64,000 nt of DNA from Azolla caroliniana (taxonomy: Eukaryota; Plantae; Polypodiophyta): the NCBI GenBank assembly GCA_043228905.1, contig JBHGNT010000001.1:5828001-5892000 (forward strand), in the 5' to 3' direction. Under the pieces are notes generated by a model. The model made no database searches and was not told where the DNA came from. It saw nothing but the letters and a program-made list of their open reading frames with translations. Position numbers and translations under genes: made by a program. Positions 17,085 to 62,200 of the stretch are shown piece after piece (position 1 is the first letter of the stretch; the number at the start of each line of letters is the position of its first letter).

Positions 17085-17123
<39 letters not shown>

Positions 17124-18242: not shown

Positions 18243-19054
<812 letters not shown>

Positions 19055-19700: not shown

Positions 19701-19706
19701 ATAAGG

Positions 19707-20897
19707 TGTCGTGAAGAAAACCGGCCCTAAGAGGAATCAAGGAATTAAAGGCGTGAACCCACTCCTGCACGAGTGTGCGCGAATTGATTCATTGTACATA
19801 ACTAGGAGTAGGACGACTGATGTAAATATACTAGGTATCAGATATTCATTAGCTAGGAAATCGATGCGTATCTCTGTCCAAAGGGACAGAGAATAAAGTT
19901 AACGTGTTTTGATGTAACGGCCTCCTCGACAACCTATAAAGGGAAGGGGAGAAGAAGAGGAGGTGCTGTCGGACAGGGAACCGAGCTCTCTCCTCCTCTA
20001 TCATCATTCTCTGTTGCAATTGTTGTAATATTCGCTGTTATTGAAATTGAATCTCTTGTTTTCGTCTATCTGTGTTTCTGGGAGTCTCCTCTTTCATTTC
20101 TCTCAAGTGTGCTTCTTGATTAAGTCGGTATACGCATTGGTGGTTCATTCAACGGGCAAGTGCTGACGGTTGCTGACAAGTCTAGCAGGCCTACACTTGC
20201 GTGCTTCTCACCTCCTCTTGTCTATCTTGCTCCTCGGTTCAGGGCCCCCGTGGTCCCGCCTTATTTCACACGCGAAAGCGAAACAACACGACATATTTGG
20301 TGAACCTGACGTGAAACAAGGCGGCAGAGGAGTGAAGATGAGGGGATCGGAGCTCGCCGAAGCCATGGCATGGCGGCAGCGATCGATCGGATAGTAAGTG
20401 TTCGCGAGGGCACGAGCGCCCTCGACAAGGCCATTGAAGCAATTGTCGGCACGATAGTCCGATTCGGTGGGAAGGAAGCCACGAGCTATTTGGTGGCCTA
20501 CCGAGCTGAGATGGTGATGAGAGACATTCCGGAGGACAAGCGTCTGGCCGGGTTCCCTCGGGTGGGGACATCGGGCATCCACACAGAGGTGCTCGAGGTA
20601 CAGGTTGCATGCCGAACCTAGGGAGAATTCGAAGCATGGCTCCTCGAAAGGTACATGCTTGATGACGCGCTTCGTTTATCGAAGTGGGACTTCATGGAGT
20701 GGGTGGAAACCCCCGAAAAGGGGAGGAGCTCCTTCGGGAGTTCGAAGAACGCTTCGCACGGCTCTCAATGCTTGACAGGACCGTGTTGGACACGAGCCGT
20801 GTCTTGTTGTTTGTCAAATCGGTGGACGTGCGGGATAGGGACCAGGTGGGTCTCCTGCTAGAGACAGATGATGGGTTGACGACCGACTGGGCCACGG
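19707..20897 (+). mobile_element. Family A copy A1: 5' LTR (19707-20293), tRNA-Trp PBS, partial gag
   Basis: TGTCGTGAAGAAAACC...CGACA; PBS TGGTGAACCTGACGTGA; gag MRGSELAEAMA, frameshifted and cut by B1. Confidence 0.85.
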
Positions 20898-22453
20898 TGT
20901 CGTGATGTTTTTCGTCCATACTAAGAAAACTGAGCGGGATAGAGAAACGGAGATGTGCAACATTGCACATGAACTTAGGGAAATTGTAACATAGGGAAAA
21001 ATAAGCAAACGTAAAGTGTAAGGAGTTAAGGTGCTCTACAAAGTTGTTAAGTGTAAATGTGATGTGCACTTTGTAGACTAGAGGGAGGTACATAGAGAAT
21101 GAGTGTAAGAGTGATGGGCATTGAGTAGGACGGCTAGAGGAGAGAGAGTTAAGGCCCATCAATCTCGAGATCGGGGCAAATATTCTCCTTTGAATGAAAA
21201 GGGGAGTTGACCACCCCTATTGTATTGTGCCTCACCCCTTACCACTATAAAAGGGAGTGAGGGGTTCCTTTTGAAGGGGTTGCCTATTTTGCGTATGAGA
21301 GGTATACCACTTAGTCTAGAGTTCTTACCGTTTTAGGGTTAGGGTTTCGTTTAGGGTTTCATTATTCATCTTCGGTTAGGGTTTTCTCATAGTCGTTTGG
21401 TGCGGCCCATGCGGCCACCATTGTTGTAATCATTCGTTTGTTTTAATATAACTTGTTGAGTATCTTGCCTCTACCGATCTCTCCTTCTATGTCATGGTCT
21501 TATTCTTTCCTCTTCTCCTCGTGAGCTAAGCTTCCATATCCTATCTTATTCTTTCTCCTCTACTCCCTAGTCCAAGACCCCCGGAGTGCGATGGAGGCAT
21601 TCCGAGAGTTTGAGCGTCGTTTCTCTCAACTCTCGGAGTGGGAACGGAGATCAGTGGGGGCGGACAAAGTCCTCCTATTTTTGAAGACTGTCCATCATGA
21701 GGAGAGGATGGACATCTTATTCGAGCTTCAAGATGATTATGGAAGACATGGTCTCACCGAGGAGTGGTCCGAAAGAGAATGGGTATGCTGGCAACATGAT
21801 GCGAGGCAGTCGGCCACAACACGCACTACTGCCGGAAGAGAGCTCAACGCAAAATGGTTCGGAGGAGCTCGACCTAGAAGCGCTAATGCAGGAGGCATGC
21901 GAGCTTGTGAAGGCGAAAATCGAAGCCGAAGAAGGGCTTATTATGGAGTCGAGCTGGAGCCGATCGGAGGATGCGGAGGAAGAAGCCTCCCTAAGCGTAG
22001 AAGACGGGGCGGGGCCTATACGGAGGCCGGGAGAGCATACGACGGAGACATGGGAAAGGGTGCGGAGCAAAAGACCCTCTTGCCTTGCGGTGAAGGGACA
22101 GCCATGGAGGCCGGTAATTACGGATTTGGGACATGGCAGCCTGAAACATCGAGTGGGGAGGAGACAAGCGGCGGTGCCACGACCTTAAACACACCGGTCC
22201 TAGAGGCTCCAGTGGTCGGCCCGAGTGCTGGCGTGAGACCTAGAGCGACAGGTGGTGGCGGCGGCAAGGCGGGAAACCGAGAAGATGACATGGAAGAGAT
22301 GGCGGCAAGCGTAATCGAGGCGTGCGCGATCGGAGGCGGGGTCGCCGCGGACAACGATGTCCCGACGGAGGCGGCTACAGACACAAAGAGCGGCGGTGCT
22401 GGGTCCTTACCCACACCGGTCCTAGAGGCTCTGGTGGCCGGCCCAAGTGCCGG
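20898..22453 (+). mobile_element. Family B copy B1: LTR (to about 21583) fused to a divergent gag-like ORF
   Basis: Starts TGTCGTGA; LTR homologous to 27296-27530; EFERRFSQLS..DKVLLFLK is homologous to family A gag. Confidence 0.7.
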
Positions 22454-25400
22454 TGTTGTGAAGAAAACCGAGCATAGGCGGAATTGGAGAAAAAGGCGCA
22501 TGAACTGGCTCTTACACGGATGGGCGCATGAATTGCTATTTTGATATTTTGTACATGATTCATAAGTGGATCGGCTGATGTAAATACTAAGTAGTACGTA
22601 TTTATTAGGGGATTGTGCGTATCTCTGTCAGAACGGACAGGGAATAAAGCGATTTGACTAGGGAGAAAGGGCACCCCTTTTTGGGGACTATTTGAGGAGA
22701 GGAGAGAAGGGAGACCAGGATCAGGCGTTGGCAAGGACGGAGTGCTGCTGCAGGACCGAGTACCTCTCTCTCTCCTCCTCAAATCGTTGTTCTCTGCGGG
22801 TCTCGAGAGTTCGTTGCCTCTGCCCCGTGGACAGCCTATGTGCTTCCAGCAGAGTCTCTCTCCTCCCCCTTTCCCCCTTGGTTTCTTCGAGTCGTGTGGC
22901 TATCGTCGGTGTGCGTGAGTAGGACCCGTGTCGGGTCCATTACCGGGTTCCCGGTTGTAAGCTGTTGACTATAGTAATCATATTCTTTTTTTCATTGCTC
23001 TTGATCTCTCTGTGTGTACTTGTCTCTCTCTCTCTCTCTCTCCTTGGTCCGAGACCCCCGTGGTCCCGCCTCCTTTTACACCCACGCGCGTAACAACGCG
23101 ACATCTTTGGTGAACCCGACGTGAATAGGCGGCAAAGGAGTCGAAAGATGAGGGGATCGGAGCTAGCAGATGCAATGGCGGTAGCCGTTGACCGGCTAGT
23201 AAGCGCTCGTGAGGGGACGGGTACCCTCGACAGAGCCATTGAATCGATCATCGGCACTATAGGCCGGTTCGGAGGGAAAGACGCCACAAGTTATTTGGAG
23301 GCTTACCGGGCTGAAATGATCATGAGGGATATCCCGGTGGACAGGCGGCTGTCCGGATTCCCTCGGGTGGTGATGCCGAGCATCCATACGGAGGTGCTCG
23401 AGGTGCTGGCCGGATGCCAGACTTGGGAGGAGTTCGAGCTGCAGCTCCTTGAGAAGTATAGGTTTGACGAATCGCTCTGGCTGTCGAGGCGGGACTTCAT
23501 GGCGTGGGTGGAAAGCCCCGGAAAGGGGAGGAACACGTCGGCGCTCCTCCAGGAGTTCGAAAAACGGTTTGCGTGGCTATCGACGCTAGACCGGATCGTG
23601 CTCGAAACGAGTCGAGTATTACTATTCGTCAAGTCAGTAGACGCGCTCGATAGGGAAAAGGTGGGTCCCCTATTGGACACGGACGAAGGGCTCACGGCAG
23701 ACTGGGCCGTGGTAAAACGGGTCTGCAGTCGTTTCGACAAACCGCACGATTGGAGCGACGGAAGCTCGTCGGGGTCAGGGCCGGTAGGAAGGAAGAGACC
23801 CGAATTTGGCTGGAGTCGGGGTCGGCATTGAATGACATAGTCAGAGGCCTATGCGGAGGAGCGGCTCTGGAGGAGCTGACACAGATGGTGCGCGACCTGC
23901 AGATCGCATAGGCACGAAGAGACAGCGGCGAACAACCTCACGACCGGAGGCCGCTGACTAGGCAGCGATGCATGTGGTGTGATGCGATCGGTCACATTCG
24001 GAAGGATTGTGCAGATTTCGCCGACACGCTCAAGTCCAACGTGGTGTACCTCTAGAATGGGCGGGTGCACGCGAGCAAGACCTGGAGAGCCCTAGAACTA
24101 AATACGGGGCGCAGCGGAATGAAGAGGTTGATGGAAGAGGCCGCGGCACGACATGTAGAAGCCGTTAACTACTCAGTTTTGGCGGGAATTCGGGTTGGGG
24201 GTGACGAGTCCCGGAAGGTGAAGGACTCCGGATTCTGGTCGCTAGTGCTAGAAGGCTTCTCCGGAGTTCGGCTGAAGAAGGAAGAGGCGGACCGCGCGGA
24301 ATAGCGGGTCCAAGAGGTCACCGGATGGGACGATCTGGTTGAAGAGAAAACGGGCTTCGTAGAAGCCACTTGCCAGAACTACGAGGTTTTGGTGGAAGAA
24401 AAACGGGCAGGAAAGGCCGGGGTGGTGGGTCCCCTGAGGTACGAAACCCGGTTTGGACCAAAACCGACCGGAGTCGGCAACCCAGGCGCGCCGGACGGAA
24501 AGAAGCAGGCGGGGTTTTGGTTGAGCACCGAAATCGAGAGAGCAACGGACCTACGGAAGGTCCTTGAAGAGTGGATCCTCAACAGTAAAGTGGAGCTGTC
24601 GTTGCGGGAGGTGCTGGGAATCACCAAGAGGGAGTTCCACGACTCCATCCTAGACTTGGTGAAGCGGAAGAGGCTCTCCACGGAGCCGGAACCGGAGAAG
24701 CCGGTGGAGGTGCGGACTACGCACTTAGAAGACGCGGCCGTAGAAGACCAGTTGGCGGAAAGCCACTACGCGATGCCGCATTGGGCAAAAGCAACTACGG
24801 ATATACCTATGCGGATCGGCGACGTTCCGGAACCGGTGGTGGCCTGGGTAGACCATGGATCCGAAATCAACCTGATGTCCATGGATTCTACAAGAAGGGT
24901 AAATGGCCGATCAACACCAAGCATGGGTGGAAGATACGCGGGGCGACGTGTGCTACGGAGGAGCTGCATGGTGCGTGCCCGAATGTACGCATAAAGATCG
25001 GTGACGTCAGGATAGATCAACATTTCTTCGTGCAGGAAACATCCTCGCACCCGGTGATTCTCGGCGAACCGTACATTACGGTAGCACGCATGGAGACGAA
25101 GGTGCTGGACAACGGTTCGGCGTACGCGCGCGTCAAGAGCTAAGACGGTCAGCATTCTGTCCAATTCATGACCGTACGTCCGAACCATGAGAGGAATTGT
25201 GAGACCCTCGACGGCGGCAACCGAGGGGATTTTTAGAGAGGGCTATCAAGGCGTGGGGCCGCGGTAGTCCGGACGTACCGGAAGAAGCCCACACATGTAC
25301 AGTAGGTAGGATGTTTTGGTTCTCCGAAAATGGAGGTTGTACTATATCCGGCGTCAGCGGACGGGAGAGGAAGCGAGTGGAGGAGCGGTTCAGGGGATGC

Positions 25401-27295
25401 AGAGTCCTCTCCCCCGACGAAGAAATCAACGGCGCCGTGGAGGCCGTCTCTCTTGACGACACCTTGGGTGAGTTGCGAAAGGTGATCGGTGAAGACCTTA
25501 GGGAAGACCGGACCGTTCCGGTTAGTTCGATGGGAATGTACGAAGTCATCGCAGACTTCGGGGAAAGGATCGGGTCGGATCGGACGACCTGCGTGGATAC
25601 AAAGTACAAGACTGTGGACCGGAAGGTGAGGCCAGTCGCAACGCCCTTGCCGGAGGGCAGCGAGGAGCGGATAAAAGGGGTCGCGTCAGACCCAAGTTTA
25701 CAGAATCTGGCTGGCATTGGGCACCAGTTCACCGACATAATGCTACAGGAGCTCAAGGTTGGTGGGGGTGGCTTTCTACTACCGGCGGAGGAGGACAGGT
25801 TTTGGAGAATGCTCGGAGGGAGGAGATCGGGTGCGTTCTCACCGGAGGAGATAGGGTGTGTGGACCCGACGATCGTCGAACCGATGGTGATCTTCACGGT
25901 ACCGCATGTACCGTGGAATCTCAAATCGATTCCGGTGCCGAGAGCTCACATCCCGAAGTTGATGGAGCTTCTGAATCAAAAGGTGGAGATGGGCATCTTC
26001 GAACCGTCGAGTGCCCCGTATTCGAATCGGTGGTTTACGGTGCCGAAGAAGAACGACACGCTACGCTTCATTCAGGACCTGCAACCGGTCAACAGGGTGA
26101 TCATCCGTAATGCAGGAATCAGACCAACCATAGACGAGTTCACGAAGGCCTTCGCTGGAAGGTCGATCTATTCGGTCGGTGACTTATACTCGGGGTACGA
26201 CCAGTTCCAGCTAGCCGTGGAGAGCAGGGATATCACGACGATGCGAACTCCTGTCGGCCTAGTATGGATGTGTACCCTACCACAAGGTGGGACGAATTTG
26301 GTGGCGCATATGGTGAACGCAATGAACGAGGTGCTGAGGGACTGCATCCTGGACATCACCATGCCATTCTTGGACGACATCCCGATAAAGGGGAGTCCGG
26401 TGGAAGATGCGAACGAGACTGTGGCGCCAGACGGATGCTGGAGGTTCGTCGTGAACCATATTAACGACTGCCAGAAGGTGCTGCAGAGGCTCGAGAGTGC
26501 ACGACTCACCTTCTCCGGAGAAAAATCGACGTTCGGGCAGTCGGAGATCCTGGTGGTCAGACACCTGTGCGGGCCTTACGATAGGAAACCGTCTCCGGCA
26601 AAGGTAGAGGCCATCTCCGCGATGAGGAACGATTGCAGGTTGGTTACGGAGGTTCGCAGATTCTTGGGTGCATGCACGTTCTACCACATCTGGATCCCGC
26701 ACTACGCACATTGAAAAGGGGGCGTAGCTTTGAGTGGAGGGTGGAGCACACAGAGTCGGTCTGGAGACTAAAGGAGGCGTTTACGGTAGTGCCGGCTCTC
26801 CGTAAAGCGGTTTACGGTAAGGGAGTCCCCATCTACGTGACGGTGGACACGAGCCCGACCGGGATCGGGTGGGTGATCAACCAGGAGGCCGAGGACGACG
26901 CACGGTTCCTGATCCGGTTCGAGGCGAAGGTATTGAGCGAGCGGCAGCGAGGATACGCCCAAGTCAAGCGCGAACTATGGGGTATCGTTTCGGCAGTCAA
27001 GGCCGACAGGGACTACCTGGTCAGGACGGAGGTAACAATCGAGATGGACTGCCTGCCGATACTCGGCATGGTGTCGGGTGCGCAACGCCGGACCTAGCAA
27101 TGCTCCGGTGGATAGTGTACATTAAGTCTCTGAACCCGGAGATACGACACATCTCCGGAAAGGATAACGCCATGGCCGACATGCTTTCGAGAGCGAGTTT
27201 CAATGACGAAGAAGACATGGTTTCGGATGACGAAGAAGTCGGCGAGAACTTCTTCGGGTCGGCTAATGTGATGACGAGGAAAGGGGACACTCCGG
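22454..27295 (+). mobile_element. Family A copy A2: 5' LTR (22454-23103), PBS, decayed gag-pro-RT-RH
   Basis: PBS TGGTGAACCCGACGTGAAT at 23108; CMWCDAIGHIRKDC; DHGSEINLM; LPQGGTN and PFLDDIPIKG; many stops. Confidence 0.9.
23108..23126 (+). promoter_or_regulatory. Primer-binding site complementary to the 3' end of tRNA-Trp
   Basis: TGGTGAACCCGACGTGAAT matches the reverse complement of the plant tRNA-Trp(CCA) 3' end as I recall it. The same motif occurs at 20298, 28190 and 52003. Confidence 0.8.
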
Positions 27296-27530
27296 TGTCG
27301 TGAAAATTTTCGTTCATAGGCGGAAACCGGGGTGAAAAGGGCAAGTCGGTGGTGTGCAACATGTGCACACGTGTACTAGGAAATGGTGTATAGAAATAAG
27401 AGGGGAAATTTTGTCCCACATTGTAAGGTCCCTCCCTCCTTGGGCTATAAAAGGAAGGGAGGGGTCACTTATGAAGGGTTGCCTATTTTGCGTATGAGAG
27501 GTATACCATTTAGTCTAGAATTCTTACCGT
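27296..27530 (+). mobile_element. Family B copy B2: partial LTR
   Basis: TGTCGTGAAAATTTTCG...CTATAAAAGG...TTCTTACCGT; matches the B1 LTR; interrupted by A3. Confidence 0.75.
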
Positions 27531-28077
27531 TGTCGTGAAGAAAACCGGCCATAGACGGATTCGGAGAGAAAGGCGCGTGAACCGGCTCTTACACGAATGG
27601 ACGCGTAACTTGATATTTTGTACTCGATTCATAAACAGATCGGTGGGTGAAATACGAGGCGGCACGCATTTATAAGGGGATTGTGCGTATCTCTGTCACA
27701 CGGAGGGGAGGACAGGGAATAAAAAGGGACTTGACAAGAAAAGAAAGATATCGCGCGCGAGGAGGAAGGGAGGGCTGCTGCAGAATGGAGGCCTGAGCTG
27801 TCTCTCTACTGCTCTCGAATCGTCGCTCTCTACGTGTGTCGGGAGGTCGCTGCCTCTGCTTCGCGCATAGCCCGTGTGCTTCCAGCAGGGTCGCTCGCCT
27901 TCCCCCCTTTTTTTTGTTTCCTCGAGTTGGGTGACTGTCGTCGGTGTGCGTGAGTAGGGTCCCCATGTCGGGTCCATCGCCGCCTTGTCGGTTGTAACTG
28001 TCAAAGTTTGTAAACTCTTGTCGTTATAATTAAGTGCTACGTTCTATATCTCTCTTTCTCGCTTCTTCATGTCGGTG

Positions 28078-28116
<39 letters not shown>

Positions 28117-31100
28117 TCTCGCTCCTCGGTCCAAGACCCCCGTGGTCCCGCCCCTTTCTACACGTACGCGCGTAACAACGTGACATCTTTGGTGAACCCG
28201 ACGTGAAAGGGCGGCAAAGGAGTTGAAAGATGAGGGGATCGGAGCTAGCAGAGGCAATGGCGGTGGCCGTTGACCAGCTGGTGAGCGCTCGTGAGGGAAC
28301 GGGTACCCTCGATAGAGCCATTGAATCGATCGTCGGCTCTATAGGCCGTTTCAGAGGGAAAGACGCCACAAGTTATTTGGAGGCTTACCGGGCCGAAATG
28401 ATCATGAGGGATGTCCCGGTGGACAGGCTACTGTCCGGATTCCCTCGGGTCGTGACGCCGGGCATTCATGCGGAGGTGCTCAAGGTGCTGGCCGGATGCC
28501 AGACTTGGGAGGAGTTCGAGCTACAGCTCCTCGAGAAGTACGGCTTTGACGACTCGCTCCGGCTGTCAAGGCGGGACTTCATGGCGTGGGTGGAAAGCCT
28601 CAGAAAGGGGAGGAACACGTCGGTGCTTCTCCAGGAGGTCCCAAAACGGTTCGCGCGGCTGTCGACGCTGGACCGGGCGGTGCTACTACTGTTTGTCAAG
28701 TCGGTGGATGCGCTCGACAGGGAAAAGGTGGGACCCCTATTGGAAACGGACGAAGGGCTCACGACGGACTGGGCCGTGGTAAAACGGGTATGCAGCCGTT
28801 TCGACAAACGGCGCGATTGGAGGGACGGAAGCACGTCGGGGTCGGGGCCGGTCCCGGGGAGGAGGCTCGAGGAGCCGGTTTCGGTGCCGGTTGGGAGGAA
28901 GGAAGAGACCTGAATCTAGCCGGAGTTGGGGTCGGCATCAAACGACGTGGTCAGAGACCCATCCGGAGAAGCGGCTCTGGAGGAGCTAACACAGATGGTG
29001 CGCGACCTGCAGATCGCATAGGCCCGGAGGGACAACGGTGAACAACCTCGGGACCAGAGGCCGCCGGCTGGGCAGTGGTGCATGTGGTGTGACGCGATCG
29101 GTCACATTCGGAAGGATTGCGCGGATTCCGCCGACGCGCTCAGGACCAACGTGGTGTATCGTTGGAACGGGCGGGTGCACGCGAGCGAGACCCGGAGAGC
29201 CCTAGAACTGAATACGGGGCGCGGTGGAATGAAGAGGTTGATGGAAGAGGCCGCGGCGCGGCACGTTGAAGCCATTAACTACTCGGTGTCGGCGGGAATT
29301 CGGGTCGGGGGTGATGAGGCCTGGAAGGCGAAGGACTACGGATTCTGGCCGTTAGTGCTAGAAGGCCTCCCCGGAGTTCGGGTGAGGAAGGAAGAGGCGG
29401 ACCGCGCGGAAGAGCGGGTCCGGGAGGTCATAGGTTGGGACGATCCGGTCGAAGAGAAAACGGGCTTCGTAGAAGCCACTTGCCAGAACTACGAGGTTTT
29501 GGTGGAAGACAAACAGGCCGGAAAGGCCGGAGGGGTCGGTCCCCCGCAGAGGTACGAGACCCGGTTCGGACCGAAACCGACCGGTGCGCCAGATCGGAAG
29601 AAGCAGGCGGGGTTTCGGTTGACCACCGAAATAGAGAGAGCAAGGGACCTATGGAAGGTCCTTGAAGAGCGAATCCTCGATAGTAAAGTGGAGCTGTCGT
29701 TGCGGGAGGTGTTGGGAATCGCCAAGACGGAGTTCCACGACTCCATCGTAGACTTGGTGAAGCGGAAGAGGCTCTCCATGGAGCCGGAACCGGAGAAGCC
29801 GGTGGAGGTGCGGACCACGCACCTGGAAGAAGAACTAGCGGGAAGCGACTACACGAAGCCGCATTGGGCCAGGGTGACTACGGAAACCCCTGTACGGAAT
29901 GACAACGTTCTGGAACCGGTGGTGGAAGACAAACAGGCCGGAAAGGCCGGAGGGGTCGGTCCCCCGCAGAGGTACGAGACCCGGTTCGGACCGAAACCGA
30001 CCGGTGCGCCAGATCGGAAGAAGCAGGCGGGGTTTCGGTTGACCACCGAAATAGAGAGAGCAAGGGACCTATGGAAGGTCCTTGAAGAGCGAATCCTCGA
30101 TAGTAAAGTGGAGCTGTCGTTGCGGGAGGTGTTGGGAATCGCCAAGACGGAGTTCCACGACTCCATTGTAGACTTGGTGAAGCGGAAGAGGCTCTCCATG
30201 GAGCCGGAACCGGAGAAGCCGGTGGAGGTGCGGACCACGCACCTGGAAGAAGAACTAGCGGGAAGCGACTACACGAAGCCGCATTGGGCCAGGGTGACTA
30301 CGGAAACCCCTGTACGGAATGACAACGTTCTGGAACCGGTGGTGGTGTCGGTAGACCATGGATCCGAAATCAACCTGATGTCCATGGATTTCTAAAAGAA
30401 GGGAAAATGGCCAATGAACACCAAGCATGGCTGGAAGATACAGGCAAGTACGCGCGCCAAGGAAGAACTACATGGGGCCTGCCCGAACGTACGAGTGAAA
30501 ATCGGCGATGTCGAGATCGACCAACACTTCTTCGTGGAGGAGACGTCCTCGCATCCGGTTATACTAGGAGAGCCATATATCACGGCGGCACGGATGGAGA
30601 CCAAGGTGCTGGACAACGGTTCAGCCTATGCAAGAGTCAAGAGCGAGGACGGGCGTCACTCGGTCCAGTTCCTAACGGTGCGACCAAACCACGAGCGTAC
30701 CCGCGAAGCCCTCGACAGCGAAACCCGAGGGGATTTTTAGAGAGGGCTATCAAGGCGTGGGGCCGCGATAGTCCGGACACCCGGGAAGAGCCCCACAAAT
30801 GTACAGTATGGAAGAAGACTTGTACCATAGGTAGGAAATTTTGGCTCTTTGACAACGGAGGTTGTGCTATAACCAGCGTCAGCGGTAGGGAGAGGAAGCG
30901 AGCGGAGGAGCGGCTCAGGGGATGCGGAGTTCTCTTCCCCGACAAGGACATCAGCGGCGCCGTGGAGGCGGTCTCTTTTGACGACACCTTGGGCGAACTG
31001 CGAAAGGTGATCGGTGAAGACCTTAGGGAAGACCGGACCGTTCTGGTAGGGTCACTGGGAATGTACGAAGTCATCGTGGACTTAGGGGAAAGGATCGGGT

Positions 31101-36300: not shown

Positions 36301-36301
36301 G

Positions 36302-36322
36302 TTTAGGGTTTAGGGTTTAGGG
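36302..36322 (+). repeat. Interstitial plant telomeric repeat (TTTAGGG)3
   Basis: GGGG-TTTAGGG-TTTAGGG-TTTAGGG-TT directly before the truncated A4 gag. Confidence 0.9.
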
Positions 36323-48858: not shown

Positions 48859-51360
48859 CGCCTAGAGAAGGGATTCGGTTTCTCGGAGGCTGCTTAGGCT
48901 GCTGCCGTCGTTCGGGTGCGATGTTTGCTGTAACCAGAGGGACTCCTCCGCTACTCTCCGGATTACGTTGGAAAACGAGCAATCCACTCTAGAATTTCCT
49001 GCGCTGCTTGCTGGAAAGCCTCACGTCTCCTTTGCCTTTCGGCAAGGTGTCGAGTTCGATCTGTAACCAAGTCGTGCGTTGATCTAATCATCCATTCGTG
49101 TCGTCGTTCGTTGCAAAAACAGGAATCGTGGTCGCCAAAAACTGTGTTAACTCTTAGGGCCGGACAATGGCCTAACACAGGGTGTCTACGGAAAACACTT
49201 CACCAAAGGGGTGTTACGGCAAGAGGATTAGGCTCAACGATTAATCCGACTTAATTAGGTCACTTATAAAGATCGTCCTTAATAATCACACGCGTAAGAT
49301 ATAACAGTGAATGCAGAACGGCAATTAACACAGAGAGATAAAAACACTAAGTTTCATTAATTATCCGTTGCTCATTACATTGTATCCGGGCCTTTAAATA
49401 GGTTTCCAGTTTGTAGTACAAAACGGTGTCATCCGCACCTGTTCGGGATCGGTCCGGATCCGGAACGGCATACCGATTCCGGTCCGTCCGTCCACACTAA
49501 TAGCTTATTTACAACCATTATTTAATAATTAAATAACTCCTTCGTTTCACAGTCTAGACTCCTATGCCAGCCGGTAATAGCTTTGAGTGGAGGACGGAGC
49601 ACACGGAGTCGGTTCGGAGACTAAAGGAGGCGCTTACGGCAGCGCCGACTCTCCGTAAAGCGGTGTACGGCAAGGACGTTCCCATCTGCCTAACGGTGGA
49701 CACCAGCCCGACCGGGATCGGGTGGGTAATCAGTCATGAGGACAAGGGCGGCGTATGATTCCCGATCCGGTTCGGGGCGAAAGTATTGAGCGAGCGGCAG
49801 CGAGGTTACGCCCAAGTTAAGCGTGAACTTTGGGGTGTCGTTTCGGCAGTCAAGGCCGACAAGGATTATCTGATTGGGATGGAGGTGATTATTGAGACGG
49901 ACTGCCTGCCGATACTTGGCATGGTTTCCGGATGCGCGACGCCGGACCTAGCAATGCTCCGGTGGATAGCGTACATTAAGTCCCTGAACCCGGAGATACA
50001 GCACATCTCCAGAAAGGACAACGCCATGGCCGACATGCTTTCGAGGGCAAGGTTCAACGACGAAGACGGCATGGTTTCGGATGACGAAGAAGTCGGCGAG
50101 GACTTCTTCGGGTCGGCTAACGTAACGACGAGGAAAGGGAACACTCCGGCGTTTAACGAATTTGACGAAAGCAGGTACGGTGGGGAGTGGCTCCAAATTG
50201 GGAGGTTCCTACGGACGATGACGTCGGACGCAGCATGGGCGAGAGAGGAGGCGAGCCGAATACGGAGGAAGGCGTACCGATTCTTCCTGCGGGACGGGTG
50301 CATATGGAAGCACCCAAAGAAGAGAAGCGGCATCCCACTCCGAGTAGTGGCAAAGAAAGAAGAACAGGGGAAACTACTGGCGGTATTCCACGAGAGCCCA
50401 TGGGCCGGACACCGCGGAACGTGGGCCACGTTCGAGATGCTGAAGGAGAAGTACTGGTGGCCGGGGCTATACCAGGACGTGCATCGGTTCGTAACAACTT
50501 GCGAAAGCTGTCAAGTGCACTCCGTAGTCCGACACCGGGACCAGCTACACCCGACCTACCCGCCTACGGTCCATTTCAAGTGGATCGTAGACTTGGTGAC
50601 GATGCCGATGGGGGTAGGACAGATGCGATACATGGTGCTTGCGCGGGAAGACTTAACGAACCAGGTGGAAGGTCGTGCACTGCAAAGCAAGACAACCACG
50701 GCGGTATGCCGGTTCCTGATCGAAGAAGTAGTGTGTCGGTACGGGTGCGTCGGGAGGATCGTGGCGGACCGGGGAGAGCTGGATGCGCGGGAGGACGAGG
50801 AGCTGTTCGATCGGCTACGCGTCAAACTCTCCCTCACCACGGCGTACAATACGGAGGCAAACGGAAAGGTGGAACGTGGGCACAGACCGATTGTAAAGGC
50901 GTTGGTGTGTGCATGCGGTGGGCAGGTCGAGAATTAGCCGCGACTCCTTACGCGTTGTGGGCGGACCGGACTACGCACAGTTCGGTGACAGGGTTTATGC
51001 CGGTGGAGCTAATGTACAGACAAAAGCCGATCATGCCGGTGGAACGAACGATTTCTTCGTGGGCGGCGGTAAATTGGAAGGACGAAATGAGCCGGGAGGA
51101 GTTGCTGGCGGCGCGGATTCGACAACTCGAGCGGAGGCCGGAGGACGTGATACATGCGAAGGAAAGGCTGCGAACGGCAAGGAAACGGAACAAGACCCGG
51201 TTCAACCGGATGCACTGATTGCGACCAAAGAAGATCGAGGAAGGCGACTGGGTCTTGGTATACGACAGCAGCCTCGACAATCAGCACAAAGTGGTGCGAA
51301 AGTTTGCTAGGAGATGGTTCGGGCCCTACATGGTGACGAGCGCGAACGGCTACTGCACGT

Positions 51361-54300
51361 TGTCGTGAAGAAAACTGTCCACAAGCGGAATCGGTGCACT
51401 GGAGCATAGGAACCGGCTCTTCATGCACGTACGCCTTATGTTGTACATAAGAGAGAATTAGGTACATAGAAGATCCTAGGTAGGTAGATTCGGTAGGTAG
51501 GAAGTTAATGGGAAACGGCTCCTTTCTTGCCTATAAGAAGAGGGAGACGAGAAGGAGGAAAGGGATCGACGATAGAGAGGACGAAGTGCTGTCGGGTTGT
51601 CGGCCGAAGGCTTCTCTCTCTTCCAAGCCCCGTAGCTTCTTTCTGTGCAGGTTTCGGGAGGCTCGCGCTTCTCTGAGGAATGCCCGAGCGCTTCCGGTAG
51701 CACCTCCAACCTACTCCTTTCTTTCTGTGCATTTACGAACAGGCATCGGCATCTGTTCGCCGGCCTGTTCAGTTGTAACCGACTTCGTGCTTCTTGTTGT
51801 TTGTCTTTGTTATTATATATATACATACATTCGTGTCTCTCTGTGTCGGTGTCCCACTCGCGTCTTTGTGTCGAAGGGCCGTGTCCCCATGAATCTACGC
51901 TCGCACGTAGTGGGTCCCTTCTCCTTTCTCTCTTGCTTTTCGGTGCAAGACCCCCGAGGTCCCGCCTCATTCCACGCGTCCGCGAGGAATACCTCGACAC
52001 CTTGGTGAACCCGACGTGAAGGAGGCAGCAGAAGAGCAGAAGATGAGGGGGTCGGATCTTGCAGAGGCCATGGCTTCGGCCGTGGATCGGATATTGAGCA
52101 CACGCGAGGGCACCGGCACCCTCGACAGAGCCATTGAGGTGGTTGTCGGTACGATCGGCCGGTTCAGCGGAAAGGATGCCACGAAGTATTTGGCGTCCTA
52201 CGGGGCAGAAATGCTGATGCGGGACATTCCGGAAGAGAGGCGTCTTGCTGGGTTCCCTCGAGTGGCGATGCCGAGCATCCATGCGGAGGTGCTCGAGGTG
52301 CGGGCGGAGAGCCGTACCTGGGAGGAGTTCGAAGGCCGACTCCTAGAAAAATACGGGCTGGACGACGTGCTCCGGCTTTCGAAACGGGACTTCATGGAAT
52401 GGGTGGAGGCCCCCGGCAAGGGAAGAAACGCGTCGGCACTCCTCCGGGAGTTTGAAGAACGCTTTGCGCGCCTTTCGGCGCTTGACCGAACCAGTCTGGA
52501 TACGAGCCGGGTCCTACTGTTCGTCAAGTCGGTGGACGAGCGGGACCGGGATCAAGTCGGCTCCTTGCTGGAAATTGAAGACGGGCTGACCACCGACTGG
52601 GCTACGGTTAAGAGAGTCTGTGGCCGTTTCGACAAACGGCGAGAATGGGCTGATAATGGGGCGGCCGGTGCGGGCTCTATCACAGCAAGGAGGCTTGAAC
52701 CGGCACCGCAAGGGCGAAGGGAAGAGACCCGGCAGTGGCTCGAAACCGGTTCGGCTTCGACCGGCATGGTCAATGGCTCGTCCGGAGGAGTTGACGCGGG
52801 CGATGAAGGATCTCCAGATCACCCAGGCTCGAAGGGAAGGCGACGAACCGGCTCGTGACCGACGGCCGGCAGCAGGGAACAGGTGCATGTGGTGGGACGA
52901 GGTCGGCCACATTCAGAAGGACTGCAGCGATTTCGCAGAGGCGTTGAGGAACCGGGTGGTGTACCTGTGGGAAGGCCGGGTGCACGCCAGTGACACCAGA
53001 AGGGCCCTAAACCGAAACGACGGGCGAGGAGGTAAGAAGAGACTGATGGAAGAGGCAGCGGCCCGACACGTGGAGACCGTCCACTACTCGGCGTCGGCCG
53101 GTATTCGTGTCGGGGACAGCGAGGCCCGAAAGGAGAGCAAAGCCGGATCCTGGTCGGAAATGTTGGAAGGCCTCGCCGGCGCACGACTAAGGAAAGATGA
53201 AGCGGACCGCGCTGAGAGACGGGTCTGGGAAATAACCGGGTGGAGCGACCTGGTCGAGGAGAAGACGGGCTTCGTAGAAGCCGCCTGCCAGAACTACGAG
53301 GCTCTGGTAGAAGACAAACGAGTGGGGAAAGCCGGAGCGGTCGGGCCCTCACAACGATATGAGACCCGATTCGGGCAACGACGGAACGAAGCCGGTGGAT
53401 CCAGCGCACAAGATAACCCCAAGAAGGGCGGATACCGACTGGGGACGGAAATAGAAAGGGCCATGGACCTGCGAAAGGTCCTAGAAGAACGGATCCTCGA
53501 CAGCAAAGTGGAGCTGTCATTGCGGGAGGTGCTAGGGATCGCCAAGAAGGAGTTCCATGACTCCATTGTGGACTTGGTAAAGCGGAAGAGGCTGTCGACG
53601 GAGACAGAACCAAAAAGACCGGTGGAGGTGCGGACGACGCACATCGACGACATGGCGCTGGAAGATGAGTGGGCGGAGAGCCACTATTCGAGGCCACACT
53701 GGGCCCGAGCGACCACGGAGACCCCAGTCAAGATCGGAGATGTTCAGGAACCGGTGGTGGCACTGGTGGACCACGGTTCGGAAATAAACCTGATGTCCAT
53801 GGACTTCTACAAGAAGGGTTTATGGCCGATCAACACCAAGCACGGGTGGAAGATACGGGCGGCGACGCGCGCCACCGAGGAACTGCACGGCGCCTGCCCG
53901 AACGTGCGAGTCAAGATCGGCGACGTCGAGATTGACCAGCACTTCTTCGTGCAGGAGACGTCCTCGCACCCGGTCATATTAGGGGAACCATACATCACGG
54001 CGGCGCGAATGGAGACCAAGGTGTTGGACAACGGTTCGGCCTACGCGAGGGTCAAAAGCCAGGACGGGCGCCATTCGTCCAATTTCTGATGGTGCGGCCG
54101 AACCACGAGCGAAACCGCGAATCCCTCGGTGGCGAGAACCGAGAGAATTTTTAGAGAGGGCTACCAAGGCGTGGGGCCGAGACAGTCCGGACACTCGGGA
54201 AAGACCCCACAGCTGTACGATAGAACCGAAACCGAAGAAACCTTGTACGATAGGTAGAAAATTTTGCTTCTCCAACAACGGAGGGTATATGATAGTCGGC

Positions 54301-57300
54301 ATCGTTGGCCGAGAAAAGGCAAGGGCGGAGGAGCGACTTCGAGCGTGCGGAGTTCTCGGCCCGGACGAGGAAATCAGCGGAGCCGTGGAGGCGGTCTCCT
54401 TCGACGACACCTTGGGGATGCTGAGGAAGGTAGCTGGAGAAGACCTTAACGAAGACCGGACGATACCGGTATGTTCCGAAGAGATGTACGAAGTCATCGC
54501 GAACTTCAGTCAGGGGCTCGGGTCGGATCGGACGGCCCGAGTTAGCACAAAGTACAAGACTGTGGACCGGAAGGTAAGGCCAGTCGCGGCACCCTTACCG
54601 GAGGCCAGTCGCGAGTCCCGAATCAGAGGGGTTGCGTCGAACCCCAGTTTACGAGATCCGTTCTGCATAGGACACACCTTCACCGACGGGACGCTCCGGG
54701 AGCTCAAGATCGGTGGGGGTGGGTTCCTACTGCCGGCGGAGGAAGACCGGTTTCGGAGAATGCTCGGAAGGCACGGGAAAGCCTTCGCATTCTCACCGGA
54801 TGAGATCGGGTGCATAGACCCGACAATCGTGGAGCCGATGGTGATATTCACGGTACCGCATGTGCCGTGGAATCTCAAGTCGATTCCAGTACCGAGAGCT
54901 CACATCCCGAAGTTGATGGAGCTATTGAGGCAGAAAGTCGGTATGGGCATTCTCGAACCGTCGAGTGCCCCATACTCGAACCGATGGTTTACCGTACCAA
55001 AGAAAAACGGAACATTGCGCTTCATTCAAGACCTGGAGCCGGTCAACAGAGTGACCATTCGGAACGCAGGAATCGGACCGACCATAGACGAGTTCGCGGA
55101 GGCCTTTGCCGGAAGGTCGATTTACTCGGTCGGTGATCTGTACTCGGGGTACGACCAGTTCCAGCTAGCCGTGGAGAGCAGAGACATTACGACGATGCGA
55201 ACTCCCCTCGGCCTAGTGCGAATGTGTACCCTACCACAAGGAGGGACCAACTCGGTGGCCCACATGGTGAATGCAATGAACAAGGTACTGAGGGATTGCA
55301 TCCCGGACATCACCTTGCCATTTCTAGACGACATCCCGATCAAAGGGTGGCCGGTGGAAGAGAAGGATGAGACACTCGGGCCGGACGGATGCCGGCGATT
55401 CGTGGCAACACACATCGACGACTACGAGAAGGTGCTACAAAGGTTAGAGGATGCGAGGCTCACTTTCTCCGAGGAGAAATCGGCCTTCGGACAATCAGAA
55501 ATCCTGGTGGTCGCACACCTATGTGCACCATATGGCCGGAAGCCGTCTCCGGAAAAAGTAGAAGCCATCTCCGCGATGAAGACCGACTGTAGCTCGGTTA
55601 CGGAGGTTCGGAGGTTCCTGGGGGCATGCGCATTCTACCACATATGGATCCCACATTACGCCCACGTTACGGAACCACTATACGGGTTGCTGAAGAAGGG
55701 GCGAAAATTCGAGTGGCGAGACGAGCACACGGAGTCGGTCCGGAAGCTGAAGGAAGCTCTTGTGGCAGCACCGGCGCTCCCGAAGGCTGTCTACGAGAAG
55801 GGTACCCCGGTATACATAACGGTGGATACGAGTCCGACCGGGATCGGATGGGTCGTCAACCAAGAAGACGAGGACGGCATTCGGTTCCCGATCCGATTCG
55901 GCGCGAAGGTCCTCAGTGAGCGACAGCGAGGGTACGCCCAGGTTAAACGCGAACTCTGGGGTATCGTTTCGGCAGTAAAGGCCGACAAAGACTACCTGAT
56001 CGGGACAGAAGTGATTATCGAGACGGATTGCCTGCCAATTCTCGGCATGGTTTCCGGATGCGCGACACCGGACCTGGCGATGCACAGGTGGATAGCGTAC
56101 ATCAAGTCCCTAGACCCGGAAATACGACACATTTCCGGAAAGGACAACGCCATGGCCGACATGCTTTCGAGGGCGAGGTTTGATGACGAGGGCGGCATGG
56201 TTTCGGAGGACGAAGAAGTCGGCGTGGACTTCTTCGAGGCAACGTAGGTGACGACCGATGGGACGGGCACTCCGGCGCTTAACGGCTTCGACGTGAGCAA
56301 GTACGACGGCGAGTGGCTACAGATCGGTGGTTTCTTGAGGACAATGACGCCGGATGCGTCATGGACGAGGGACGAGACCAACCGGATCCAGAAGAAAGCA
56401 TATCGATTCTTTCTCCGGGACGGATACTTATGGAAGCACCCGAAGAAGAGGAACGGCGTCCCGCTCCGGGTGGTGGCGATGAAGGAAGAACAGGAGGAGC
56501 TGCTGACGGCCTACCACGACAGCCCTTGGGCTGGACACCGTGGAACGTGGGCCACGTTCGAAAAGATAAAGGGGAAGTACTGGTGGCTGGGACTGTACCG
56601 GGACATGCATCGGTTCGTGACAACTTACGAGAGCTGTCAGATACACTCCATGGTACGACATCGGGACGAGCTTCACCCTACGTACCCTCCAACCATCCAC
56701 TTCAAATGGATGGTAGATCTGGTGACGATGCCGATGGGAGTAGGACAGATGCAGTATCTGGTCCTGGCTCGAGAAGATCTGACGAACCAGGTGGAAGGCC
56801 GAGCCCTTCAGAACAAAACGACCGTGGCCGTATGTCGGTTCCTGATCGAGGACGTGATATGCCGGTACGGGTGCGTCGGGAAGATCGTGGCTGATCGCGG
56901 GGAGTTGGACGCCGAAGAGGCCAAGGAACTGTTCGACCGGCTAGGAGTCAAGCTCTCGCTTACCACTGCGTACAATCCGGAGGCGAATGGGAAGGTGGAG
57001 CGTGGACATGACCGATCATCAAGGCGTTAGTTCGGGCATGCGGAGGTCAAGTCGGGAACTGGTTGCGGCTGCTGCCTTACACGTTGTGGGCGGACCGAAC
57101 TACGCACAGTTCAGTAACCGGATTCATGCCGGCAGAGCTCATGTTTGGGCAGAAGCCGATCATGCCGATGGAACGTACGATCTCCTCATGGGCAACCATG
57201 GACTGGAGAGACGAGATGAGCCGGGAGGAACTGTTGGCGGCGCGCATACGACAGCTCGAGCGAAGACCGGAGGACGTGGAGCAGGCTGCGAGAAAGCTTC

Positions 57301-58362
57301 GGGTGGCAAGGACGAGGAACAAAGCCCGCTTCGACCGAACGCACCGGCTCCGACCGAAGAAGATCAAGGAAGGCGACTGGGTGCTAGTCTACGACAGTAG
57401 CCTCGACCACCAACATCGAGCAACACGGAAGTTCGCAAGAAGGTGGTTCGGGCCTTACGTGGTACAAAGCGCCAACGACAACGGGACATACCATCTGGAG
57501 GAACTCGACGGCACGAGAATGGCGATACTGGTAGCTGGGAAGCGGATCAAAACGTTCAAGAAGCGTCACGACGACGAGCCGGATCCGGTTAACCTGGACC
57601 GCGACGACGAACGATCCGAAACCGAGGAAGAACCGACGGGCGGGGAATAAAGACTGGACCGGTTTTCTCCGTCCCAACTCAATTTGGCGCATGCCAGTGG
57701 ATGCGCGGTTAGGTGGGGGCGGATGTCGTGAAGAAAACCGTCCACAAGCGGAATCGGTGCACCGGAGCATAGGAACCGACTCTTCATGCACGTACGCCTT
57801 ATGTTGTACATAAGAGAGAATTAGGTACATAGAAGATCCTAGGTAGGTAGATTCGGTAGGTAGGAAGTTAATGGGAAATGGCTCCTTTCTTGCCTATAAG
57901 AAGAGGGAGACGAGAAGGAGGAAAGGGATCGACGATAGAGAGGACGAAGTGCTGTCGGGTTGTCGGCCGAAGGCTTCTCTCTCTTCCAAGCCCCGTAGCT
58001 TCTTTCTGTGCAAGTTTCGGGAGGCTCGCGCTGCTCTGAGGAATGCCCGAGCGCTTCCGGCAGCACCTCCAACCTACTCCTTTCTTTCTGTGCGTTTACG
58101 AACAGGCATCGGCATCTGCTCGCCGGCCTGTTCAGTTGTAACCGACTTCGTGCTTCTTGTTGTTTGTCTTTGTTATTATATATATACATACATTCATGTC
58201 TCTCTGTGTCGGTGTCCCACTCGCGTCTTTGTGTCGAAGGGCCGTGTCCCCGTGAATCTACGCTCGCACGTAGTGGGTCCCTTCTCCTTTCTCTCTTGCT
58301 TTTCGGTGCAAGACCCCCGAGGTCCCGCCTCATTCCACGCGTCCGCGAGGAATACCTCAACA
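51361..58362 (+). mobile_element. Family A copy A5: structurally complete and the youngest A copy
   Basis: 639-bp LTRs 51361-51999 and 57724-58362 (12 substitutions); 4-bp TSD ACGT; PBS at 52003; PPT AGGTGGGGGCGGA; gag-pro 52043-54153 and pol to 57650 with a few lesions. Confidence 0.95.
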
Positions 58363-59211
58363 ACGTACCACCTCGCGGAACTCGACGGGACACGGTTAGC
58401 GGTGCCCGTGGCCGGAAAGCGGATCAAAGCTTTCAAAAAGCGGTTCGAAGACGAGCCGGAGCCTGCAAGCGGGAGCGACAACGACGATCAGTTCGGGTCC
58501 GGCGAAGAATCGGAGAGCAACGAGTGAGGCCGGGTTTCTTCGATATCTACCCGTCTCTGGCGCATACCGGTGGATGCGCGGTTTGGTGGGGGTGGATGTC
58601 ATGAAGAAAACCGGCCATAGGCAGAATCAGAGAGAAAGCGCGTAAACCGGCCCTTACACGAATGGACGCGTGACTTGATATTTTGCACACGAACCGGTGG
58701 ACGTAAATACTAAGCCGCACGCATTTATTAGGGGGGGATTGTGCGTATCCCGGTCAGAGGGACAGGGAATAAAGGGAGGAGGACAAGGGAAAACGAGCAT
58801 CGCGTGCGAGGAGGAAGAAAAGCGTTGCTGCAGAACGAAAGAGGGAGCTCTCTCTCTTGGACGCGAATCGTCGCTCTCTGCGGGTGTCGGGAGGTCGCTG
58901 CCTCTGCTTCGTGGACAGCCCGTGTGCTTCCAACAGAGTCGCTCCCTTTCCCTTTTTGTTTCTTTGAGTCGTGCATCTATCGTCGGTGTGCATGAGTAGG
59001 GTCCCCGTGTCGAGTCCGTCGCCGCTTTGTCGGTTGTAACTGTCGGTGTTTGTAATCTCTGTCATTATAATTAAGTGTTACGTTCTATATCTCTCTTTCT
59101 AGCTCCTACGTGTCGGTGAATCTCTCTCTCTGTCTCTCTGTCTCTCGCTCCTCGGTCCAAGACCCCCGTGGTCCCGCCCCTGTCTACACGTACGCGCGTA
59201 ACCACGCGACA

Positions 59212-62200
59212 ACGGCTCTTGAGGAACTGACACAAATGGTGCGCGACCTACAAATCGCGCAAGCCCGGAGAGACAGTGGAGGGCAACCACGCGACCGAAG
59301 GCCACCGGCTGGACAGCGGTGTATGTGGCGTGACATGGTCGGACACAGCCAGCGAGACTGTGTGGAGTTTGCCAAAGCCCTCAGGGGTAATGTGGTGTAC
59401 CTATGGAACGGATAGGTGCACATTGGTAGCAGCGGAGGCACGCCATGTGGAGGCCGTCCATTATTCAGCATCGGCCGGAATCCGAGTGGGAGGTGACGAA
59501 GACTGGAAAACGAAGGACTTTTGCTTCTGGCCCTTGGTGCTACAAGGCCTCTTCAGCGCACGACTAAAGAGGGAGGAAGCAAGTCGCGCAGAGCAGCAGG
59601 TCCGGGAGGTCACTGGATGGGATGATCCGGTTGAGGAGAAGAGCCGTCTCGTGGAAACCGTGTGCCAAAACTACAAGGTTCTGGTAGAAGACAAGCGCGC
59701 GAGAAAGGCCGGAGGTGCCGGGCCCTCATAGCGGTACGAGACCCGGTTCGGGCAAAAGCAAAATGATGCCGGTAACCCCGGTGCACCGGACAAAACTAAG
59801 CGGGCCGGTTATCGGCTGAGCACGGAGATTGAGAGGTCAACGGACCTGCAAAAAGTCTTCGAAGAACGGATCCTCGACAACAAGGTGGAGTTGTCAGTAA
59901 GGGAGGTTCTCGGGATCACCAAGAAGGAGTTCCACGATTCCATCGTGGACTTGGTGAAGCGGAAACGGCTCTCGACAGAGCCGAAGCCAGAGCCGGAGAA
60001 GAGGTACGGACGACACACTTAGAAGACATGGGCCTAGAGGACGAGTTGGCGAACAACCACTATTCGAAGTTGCATTGGGCCAGAGCCACTACGGAGACCC
60101 CTATTCGGATTGGGGACGTTCCGGAGCCGATGGTGGCATTGATAGACCATAGATCCAAAATCAACATGATGTCCATGGATTTCTATAAGAAAGGGAAATG
60201 GCTGATCAACACCAAGCACAGGTGGAAGATACACGCGGTGGAGGAGCTGCACGGTGCGTGCCCAAATGTACGTGTAAAGATCAGCGACATCGAGATAGAT
60301 CAACACTTCTTTTTGTGGAGGAGACATCCTCGCAGTCGGTGATACTCGGCGAGCCGTACATTACGGCGGCATGTATGGAGACAAGGGTGCTGGATAACGG
60401 TTCGGCATACGTGCGCGTAAAGAGCGAAGATGGACGACACTTCGTCCAATTCTTGACTGTGCGACCGAACCATGAGCAGAACCGGGAAACCCTCGACAAC
60501 GACGAATGAGGGGATTTTTGGAGAGGGTTATCAAGGCGTGGGGCCGCAATAGTCCGGACATCCCGGAGGATCCCCACACCTGTACCATAGGTAGGAAGTT
60601 TTGGTTCTCTGATAACGGAGGTTGTACGATAGCCGTCATCATTGGCCGGGAGAAGAAGCGGGTACAGGAACGACTCATGACATGCGGAGTCCTCGACCCC
60701 GAAGAGGAAATTAGTGGCGCCATGGAGGCGGTCTCTTTCGACGACACCCTTTGGGAAATCAGGAAGGTGATCGAAGAAGGCCTCAGTAAAGATCGGATGA
60801 TTCTGGTTAACTTGGTGGGAATGTATGAAGTCATTGTCGATTTCGGGGAAAGGGTCAGGTCGGATCGGACGGCCTACGTGGATACAAGGTACAAGACTGT
60901 GGACCGGAAGGTGAGGCTAGTCGCGACACCCTTGCCAGAGGGCAACAAGGAACGAATAAAAGGGGTCACCGAGGACCCTAGTTTGCGGAATCCGGTCGGC
61001 ATAGGACACCAGTTCACCGACATAACGCTACAAGAGCTCAACGTCGGTGGGGGTGGCTTCCTATTGCTGGCGGAGGAGGAGAGGTTTCGGGTAATGCTCG
61101 GGAGGCACGGGAAGGCCTTTGCATTCACGCCGGGGCGTGAACCCGACGATCGTGGAACCAATGGTGACCTTCACGGTACCGCATGTGCCGTGGAATCTCA
61201 AGCCAATTCCAGTACCTAGAGCTCACATCCCGGAGCTGGTAAAACTGCTTAAACCGAAGTTGGAGATGGGCATCCTCGAGCCGTCGAGTGCCCCGTATTC
61301 GAACCGGTGGTTTACAGTGCCAAAGAAGAACAGCACGCTGCGTTTCCTTCAGGACCTGCAACCGGTCAATAAAGTGACCATTCAAAATGCAGGTATCGGG
61401 CTGACCATAGGTCGATCTATTCGATCGGGGATCTATACTCGGGGTACGACTAGTTCCAACTAGCCGTGGAGAGCAGGGATAGTACGACGATGTGGACACC
61501 TCTCGGCCTAGTGTGGATGTGTACCTGGCCACAAGGAGGGACCAACTCGGTGGCGCACATGGTGAACGCTATGAACAAAGTGTTAAGGAACTGCATCCCA
61601 GACATCACCATGCCGTTTTTGGACAATATACCGATAAAGGGATGTCCGATGGAAGATAAGGATGAGTCGGTTGCACTGGACGGTTGCCATAGGTTTGTTG
61701 CGGACCACATCAAAGACTGCGAGAAGGTCCTACAAAGGCTTGAGAGCGCACGGCTCACCTTCTCCGGAGAGAAGTCATCTTTCGGGCAATCGAAGATCCT
61801 GGTCGTCGGACACCTATGAGGGCCTTACGGCCGGAAACCATCTCCCGCGAAGGTGGAGGCCATCTCTGCGATGAAGGACGACGACAGGTCATTTACGGAG
61901 GTCTAAAGGTTCTTGGGGGCATGCGCGTTCTATCACATCTGGATTCCGCACTACGCACACATCGCGGAGCCACTCTACGGGCTACTAAAAAAGGGGCGTA
62001 AATTCGAATGGGGCAAGGAGCATACGGAGTCGATCCAGAGACTGAAGGAGGCGCTTACTGCGGCACCGGCTCTCCGGAAAGCGGTTTACGGCAAGGAGGT
62101 CCCAATCTACGTAACCGTAGATACGAGCCCGACCAGGATAAGATGGGTGATCAATCAGTTGGACGAGAGCGGCACGCGGTTCCGATCCAGTTCGGGGCGA

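What the first reader, a model, noticed from the sequence alone, without database searches (positions are those of the whole stretch)
19703..59215. Families A/B integrate at CpG: 4-bp N-CG-N target at every junction
Seen: A5 has a 4-bp TSD (ACGT at 51357-51360 and 58363-58366; removing it restores the host integrase frame), whereas the Tcn1, C and D elements here have 5-bp TSDs. The four bases next to the other A/B ends are ACGG (20894), CCGG (22450), CCGG (27292), CCGT (27527), CCGA (34954) and ACGG (59212). The A1 flank AAGG (19703) can be reconstructed as ACGG from the other copy of the C-LTR TSD (ATACG). All 8 sites are therefore (A/C)CG(G/T/A). Known parallel: Drosophila ZAM and tirant target CGCG-type sites. 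Inference: the integrase recognises CpG, perhaps methyl-CpG, so these CpG-rich elements preferentially insert into each other and avoid AT-rich gene flanks, without needing a chromodomain. I do not know of this being described for a plant LTR family.
Basis: partly seen in the sequence, partly recalled or inferred. Interest (0 to 1): 0.8.

Follow-up and report, generated by a model that had tools for sequence, protein, structure and literature searches.

The report
Phygy-like retrotransposons inserting at CG
These plant jumping genes insert almost only at four-base sites with CG in the middle, but that preference is already published for the moss Phygy lineage, to which they likely belong, and whether the CG must be methylated is untested.

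Summary
The motif is real; the novelty claim is not. All cited flanks are present: 7 of 8 insertion events read N-CG-N, the eighth is literally AAGG, and only A5 has a paired TSD. Among 80 distinct left flanks of related LTRs from metagenome contigs, 71 have CG centred, against 3.7% CG per position in the flanks; 8 more read TG/CA, as CpG decay would give. ACGT dominates (37 of 71), T first and A last are avoided, and nothing outside the four bases matters. Neumann et al. 2019 already list Phygy, a non-chromovirus Ty3/gypsy lineage of Physcomitrella, as '4 bp (100%) (NCGN)' for 186 elements. Families A/B share its 4-bp NCGN target, compact pol and lack of chromodomain; tree placement was not testable. 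Methyl-CpG reading remains an open, unsupported idea.

The parts
19703..19706 (+). Left flank of A1, literally AAGG; overlaps the right TSD copy (ATAAG, 19701-19705) of a C solo LTR whose left copy is ATACG (19050-19054)
   Evidence: ancestral state not settled
19707..20293 (+). A1 5' LTR, followed by a PBS
20894..20897 (+). ACGG half-site left of B1, inside A1 gag
   Evidence: paralogous empty sites ACGG, GCGG, GTGG, ATGA
20898..22449 (+). B1: LTR with a deleted end, then a gag remnant homologous to A gag (38% over 78 aa, E 7e-13)
22450..22453 (+). CCGG half-site left of A2, inside B1
22454..23103 (+). A2 5' LTR, followed by a PBS
27292..27295 (+). CCGG half-site left of B2, inside A-family pol
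   Evidence: five paralogous empty sites, all CCGG
27296..27530 (+). B2 LTR fragment; its last four bases (CCGT, 27527-27530) are the half-site of A3
   Evidence: B1 LTR has CCGT at the empty site
27531..28185 (+). A3 5' LTR, followed by a PBS
34295..34953 (+). A-family 3' LTR after a degenerate polypurine tract; no partner LTR in the window
34954..34957 (+). CCGA half-site right of that LTR, in C-like LTR sequence
51357..51360 (+). Left copy of the A5 TSD, ACGT, in the integrase region of another A element
51361..58362 (+). A5, the only complete A element (7,002 bp): LTRs 51361-51999 and 57724-58362 (98% identical), PBS 52003-52020, gag (DUF4100), RT, RNase H, integrase; reading frame broken in several places; no chromodomain
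58363..58366 (+). Right copy of the A5 TSD, ACGT
58597..59211 (+). 3' LTR of the A element that hosts A5
59212..59215 (+). ACGG half-site right of that LTR, inside A-family gag
   Evidence: four paralogous empty sites, all GCGG

Best explanation
Families A/B are Ty3/gypsy LTR retrotransposons without a chromodomain that insert at a 4-bp V-CG-B site (best: ACGT) and likely belong to the Phygy lineage, whose NCGN target is already published. Shown: 4-bp spacing, central CG in about nine of ten copies, T avoided first and A avoided last, no preference outside the four bases. Inferred: the integrase complex cuts the two strands 4 bp apart and kinks the target at the central pyrimidine-purine step, as retroviral integrases with 4-bp TSDs do; it would also read the C:G pairs, because the other flexible steps (TA, TG, CA) are not used as primary targets; the TG/CA exceptions would be later deamination of methylated CpG. 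Nesting would follow passively: CG is four times denser in these elements than beside the gene, and insertions into repeats survive selection.
For: 71 of 80 distinct left flanks CG-centred against 0.037 per position (binomial p 6e-91), 25 of 28 right flanks; CG sits at -3/-2 on the left and +2/+3 on the right, which only a 4-bp duplication explains. ACGT 37 observed against 4.1 expected among 71 CG sites; first base T in 1 of 80, last base A in 3 of 80; positions -14 to -5 flat. No TA centre in 80. TG/CA at 8 of 79 centres matches decay at the LTR's own CpG, 6 of 80 (Fisher p 0.59). Loose-end consensus in runs holding this window's gene ends in ACGT (X2, X3) or AC+GG (X1-X4). Phygy: 186 elements, 4 bp (100%) NCGN, tRNA-Trp PBS 81%, no extra domain (PMC6317226 text and Additional file 5). 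No chromodomain or second RNase H in A5 or five long relatives. Central YR step and T/A avoidance at positions 0/+3 for 4-bp TSD retroviruses (PMC4422553 passages). CG per position 0.079 in the nest, 0.020 on the gene side.
Against: No Phygy reference sequence could be obtained (Additional files 1 and 3 too large), so membership rests on shared features. A5 (7,002 bp) is below the Phygy size range of 7,656-9,968 bp. The tRNA-Trp identity of the PBS is recalled; two searches found no tRNA gene to test it. Only 3 of 11 solo-like contigs had matching flanks, probably because of chimeric assembly. Family B was tested only at its 2 window junctions plus incidental ones; the B pattern matched 0 of 119 loci. 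No biochemical or structural test of the integrase.
Confidence: 0.75

Rival explanations
1. The integrase, or a host partner, reads methylated CpG, so the element is steered to silenced DNA without a chromodomain.
For: All 8 window insertions are in other elements. At least 25 of 80 outside flanks are recognisable retroelement DNA, a lower bound. TG/CA variants show that the sites were methylated at some time. Phygy is among the families enriched in centromeric regions of a liverwort (PMC12885004 passage). A 1992 paper on CpG methylation and retroviral integration is listed in a review's references (title only, content not seen).
Against: Methylation after insertion explains the TG/CA variants equally well. 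29 of 31 AT-rich flanks carry central CG; one insertion (L059) interrupts a host methyltransferase-like frame. ZAM and Tirant choose CGCG in Drosophila, which has almost no CpG methylation (recalled). No methylation data were available.
Confidence: 0.12
2. A/B are a separate non-chromovirus lineage of non-seed plants that reached the same NCGN target independently of Phygy, or inherited it from an older shared ancestor.
For: Size below the Phygy range; RT-RH only 23-28% identical to the window's Tcn1 and D elements; closest named relatives are in Riccia and Adiantum, none named from Physcomitrium.
Against: Target, TSD length, domain content and probably the primer all match Phygy; the nearest alternatives do not fit (Selgy: tRNA-Ala, about 5 kb; TatI: extra aRH domain). 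TE proteins are often left out of annotations, so the missing Physcomitrium name means little.
Confidence: 0.11
3. The pattern is an artefact of CG-rich surroundings, mis-set LTR ends or survival of nested copies.
For: The nest is CG-rich (0.079 per position) and only one window element has a paired TSD.
Against: A5's two LTRs fix the ends exactly; 71 of 80 outside flanks, including AT-rich ones where CG is 1.7% of positions; the four 5-bp-TSD insertions in the same window show no such centred CG.
Confidence: 0.02

Closest known systems
Phygy (non-chromovirus Ty3/gypsy lineage of Physcomitrella patens; Neumann et al. 2019, PMC6317226, REXdb)
   Same: 4-bp TSD with NCGN motif; no chromodomain, no extra RNase H, coding region fills the internal part; PBS probably tRNA-Trp.
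   Different: A5 is 7.0 kb against 7.7-10.0 kb; the host is probably another non-seed plant (not identified); the edge bias (V-CG-B, ACGT best) is not given in the parts of the paper seen.
Drosophila errantiviruses of the ZAM subgroup (ZAM, Tirant; PMC5408687)
   Same: Sequence-specific integration at a palindromic 4-bp site with central GC-rich core (CGCG).
   Different: Their 4-mer is CGCG, which centres on GC in that register; they have env and AGT/AnT ends. A/B have TG..CA ends and no env, and GCGC is a minor site (2 of 80).
Retroviruses with 4-bp TSDs (PFV, gammaretroviruses; Serrao et al. 2015, PMC4422553)
   Same: Central pyrimidine-purine step; T and A disfavoured at positions 0 and +3.
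   Different: Their preference is weak and accepts any YR step, with signal outside the TSD; here it is near-absolute for CG and confined to four bases.
RLG1 / Tcn1 chromoviruses of mosses (PMC7466625, PMC6317226)
   Same: Occur in the same TE islands; a Tcn1-type copy lies at 11571-17227.
   Different: Chromodomain present, 5-bp TSD, no NCGN motif; RT-RH only 26% identical to A5.

Membership tests
Phygy | Clusters with Phygy in RT/RH/INT trees | not testable with these tools
   REXdb sequence file too large to read; no named Physcomitrium hit
Phygy | 4-bp TSD, NCGN | tested here: met
   A5 paired TSD; 71 of 80 left and 25 of 28 right flanks
Phygy | Ty3/gypsy order RT-RH-INT, no chromodomain | tested here: met
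   Pfam on A5 frames and 5 long relatives; integrase C-termini read
Phygy | No aRH domain and no extra ORF; coding region spans the internal part | tested here: met
   Frames run from 51911 to 57650 between the LTRs; one RNase H only
Phygy | PBS mostly tRNA-Trp (81%) | tested here: inconclusive
   PBS is the complement of a CCA-ended plant small RNA ('miR894', PMC5846777 table); the Trp identity is recalled; no tRNA gene found
Phygy | Length 7,656-9,968 bp (descriptive range from one species, not a criterion) | tested here: not met
   A5 is 7,002 bp; range
Selgy | 4-bp TSD without a motif, tRNA-Ala PBS, 4.4-6.7 kb | tested here: not met
   Strong NCGN motif and 7.0 kb length
TatI | aRH domain in the polyprotein (100%) | tested here: not met
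   No second RNase H
Tcn1 / RLG1 chromovirus | Chromodomain, 5-bp TSD | tested here: not met

The most novel reading that the evidence does not exclude
Phygy-type integrases read methylated CpG directly and so home to silenced DNA without a chromodomain: an epigenetic mark used as the integration target itself.
Probability: 0.12. Interest if true: 0.7.

Novelty: new member of a known kind. Interest (0 to 1): 0.2.

Why it matters
The target rule itself is known, so the finding adds little: a second data set for NCGN targeting, probably outside Physcomitrium, with a sharper consensus (V-CG-B, ACGT best) and evidence that exceptions are later CpG decay. A near-absolute 4-base rule is rare among plant LTR elements and makes this integrase a clean system for asking how such enzymes read target bases. 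Only if methylation proved necessary would it matter more widely.

Tried and rejected
No whole genome is held, so metagenome contigs replaced a genome-wide census. Laying four runs on the A5 left junction gave no usable flank list. Laying four runs on the A1 junction did not show which base is ancestral at 19704. Solo-like contigs were rejected as TSD pairs: 8 of 11 had unlike flanks, and one right flank recurs behind a PPT-preceded LTR in another contig, which points to chimeric joins. Of 120 pattern matches, 30 PPT-preceded 3' LTR starts and 10 duplicates were dropped before the count of 80; of 37 right ends, 8 PBS-followed and 1 duplicate were dropped before 28, and one of the three non-CG right ends (L044, minus strand) is a mis-called LTR start. 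A family-B pattern matched none of 119 loci. PBS and tRNA patterns found nothing in viral or prokaryote collections. Control-family LTR ends were not found in the loci. Cluster look-ups and the ESM Atlas gave no organism or lineage name. A 5-bp TSD was rejected by the motif offsets; alternating CGCG-type targets by the counts. Searches (listings only) showed no paper on methylation-dependent targeting by Phygy; subscription papers are not covered.

Full report
Setting. The window holds a lipoxygenase gene in AT-rich DNA (about 4.6-9.9 kb) followed by a nest of LTR retrotransposons. A Tcn1-type chromovirus with a chromodomain and named relatives of family A in Riccia and Adiantum (63-71% identity for the best of them) point to a non-seed land plant; the species was not identified. 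No whole genome was held.

The observation. They represent 8 insertion events. Seven read N-CG-N; at the local CG rate (0.079 per position) that has probability 1.5e-7, or 7e-6 after allowing for the choice of motif. The eighth, A1, is AAGG; its repair to ACGG depends on which copy of a C solo-LTR TSD mutated and was not settled. Only A5 has a paired TSD: ACGT on both sides, LTRs 98% identical, host frame continuous across the site. The other A LTRs are 62-82% identical to each other, so the nest has lost its partner ends and those flanks are half-sites. The Tcn1, D and two C insertions have 5-bp TSDs.

Wider test. A 25-letter LTR-start pattern found 119 loci in metagenome contigs. For the 60 loci with an alignment of 250 bases or more, identity to the window's A LTRs was 67-88%, median 74%, so they are the same family group in the same or a related plant. 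After dropping 30 PPT-preceded starts and 10 duplicates from 120 matches, 80 left flanks remained: 71 CG, 5 TG, 3 CA and 1 CT at the centre, against 0.037 CG per position in the same flanks. Right ends gave 25 of 28. CG lies at -3/-2 on the left and +2/+3 on the right, which fixes a 4-bp duplication. Among the 71, ACGT is seen 37 times against 4.1 expected; T is first in 1 of 80, A is last in 3 of 80; positions -14 to -5 are flat. The TG/CA share (8 of 79) equals decay at the LTR's own CpG in the same copies (6 of 80; p 0.59), so no primary TG/CA target is needed, although some LTR variants may be inherited. Contigs from runs that hold this window's gene give loose-end consensus ending in ACGT or ACGG (X1 and X4 may be the window's source, X2 and X3 are other samples).

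What is known. Neumann et al. [quoted passage not shown] Jedlicka et al. 2019 (PMC6911290, passages) also find 4-bp TSDs with GC-rich centres and list Phygy among 4-bp families. RLG1 has a chromodomain (PMC7466625, passages), so it is not Phygy. A/B match Phygy in target, TSD length, domain content and compact layout; the PBS is the complement of a CCA-ended small RNA (PMC5846777, passages) that I recall as the tRNA-Trp 3' end; A5 is shorter than the published range; tree placement could not be tested. B gag is homologous to A gag. The unread Additional file 1 lists TSD sequences and may already contain the edge bias reported here.

Mechanism. Shown: spacing, motif and edge bias. Inferred: retroviral integrases with 4-bp TSDs favour a flexible pyrimidine-purine step at the centre and avoid T and A at positions 0 and +3, with a modelled clash of the thymine methyl as the reason (PMC4422553, passages). 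The V-CG-B pattern fits that. Because TA is never used in 80 sites, bending alone is not enough and base reading of C:G is likely. Nesting needs no extra mechanism: CG is four times denser in the nest than beside the gene, and selection removes insertions in genes.

Self-nesting: 9 of 80 flanks match A/B elements, and at least 25 of 80 are recognisable retroelement DNA (Pfam was given the two longest open stretches per flank, 148 in all). AT-rich avoidance: 31 of 80 flanks are under 42% GC, and 29 of them have central CG; one insertion interrupts a host methyltransferase-like frame (L059). Short-read contigs favour unique flanks, so these counts understate nesting. Methyl-CpG reading: no data bear on the state of the target before insertion; Drosophila ZAM and Tirant select CGCG (PMC5408687, passages) in a genome with almost no CpG methylation (recalled). 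Searches (listings only) showed no study of this question for Phygy.

Verdict. A correct and well-spotted pattern that rediscovers a published property of a known lineage. New member of a known kind; interest 0.2. The methyl-CpG version stays possible (about 0.12) and would merit 0.7.

Noticed in passing
window 11571-17227: Young Tcn1-type chromovirus: LTRs 99.8% identical, open gag (404 aa) and pol (1194 aa) frames with chromodomain, AATAT TSD, about 1.7 kb downstream of the lipoxygenase gene.
   Followed up: partly
window 4554-9895: Lipoxygenase gene with PLAT domain; the last exon is only about 60-63% identical to named angiosperm lipoxygenases.
   Followed up: partly
window 36300-36325 and about 21334-21360: Plant telomere-like TTTAGGG repeats at a deletion junction before an A gag fragment, and a similar tract inside the B1 LTR.
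   Followed up: no
window 39695-49579 (minus strand): Element D, 9.9 kb gypsy with 5-bp TSD and two long frames after the integrase (41218-43284) with no Pfam match.
   Followed up: partly
window 52003-52020 and other A PBSs: The PBS is the exact complement of the small RNA annotated as miR894, which maps to gypsy elements in a conifer study.
   Followed up: partly
window 29500-30345: Tandem duplication of 426 bp, 99.8% identical, inside A3; recent event or assembly artefact.
   Followed up: no
window 22000-64000: The elements keep CpG observed/expected near 0.9-1.2 while the gene side is mostly 0.3-0.55, although TG/CA decay is visible in single copies.
   Followed up: no
L059:1355-1609: An A-family LTR sits at an ACGC site directly in a frame matching Methyltransf_29, a host-gene-like sequence.
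   Followed up: partly
L100:1-12071: The same flank and LTR start at both ends in inverted orientation; probably an assembly artefact.
   Followed up: no
L073, flank before the LTR (minus strand): The 40 bases before the insertion look tRNA- or SINE-like by eye.
   Followed up: no
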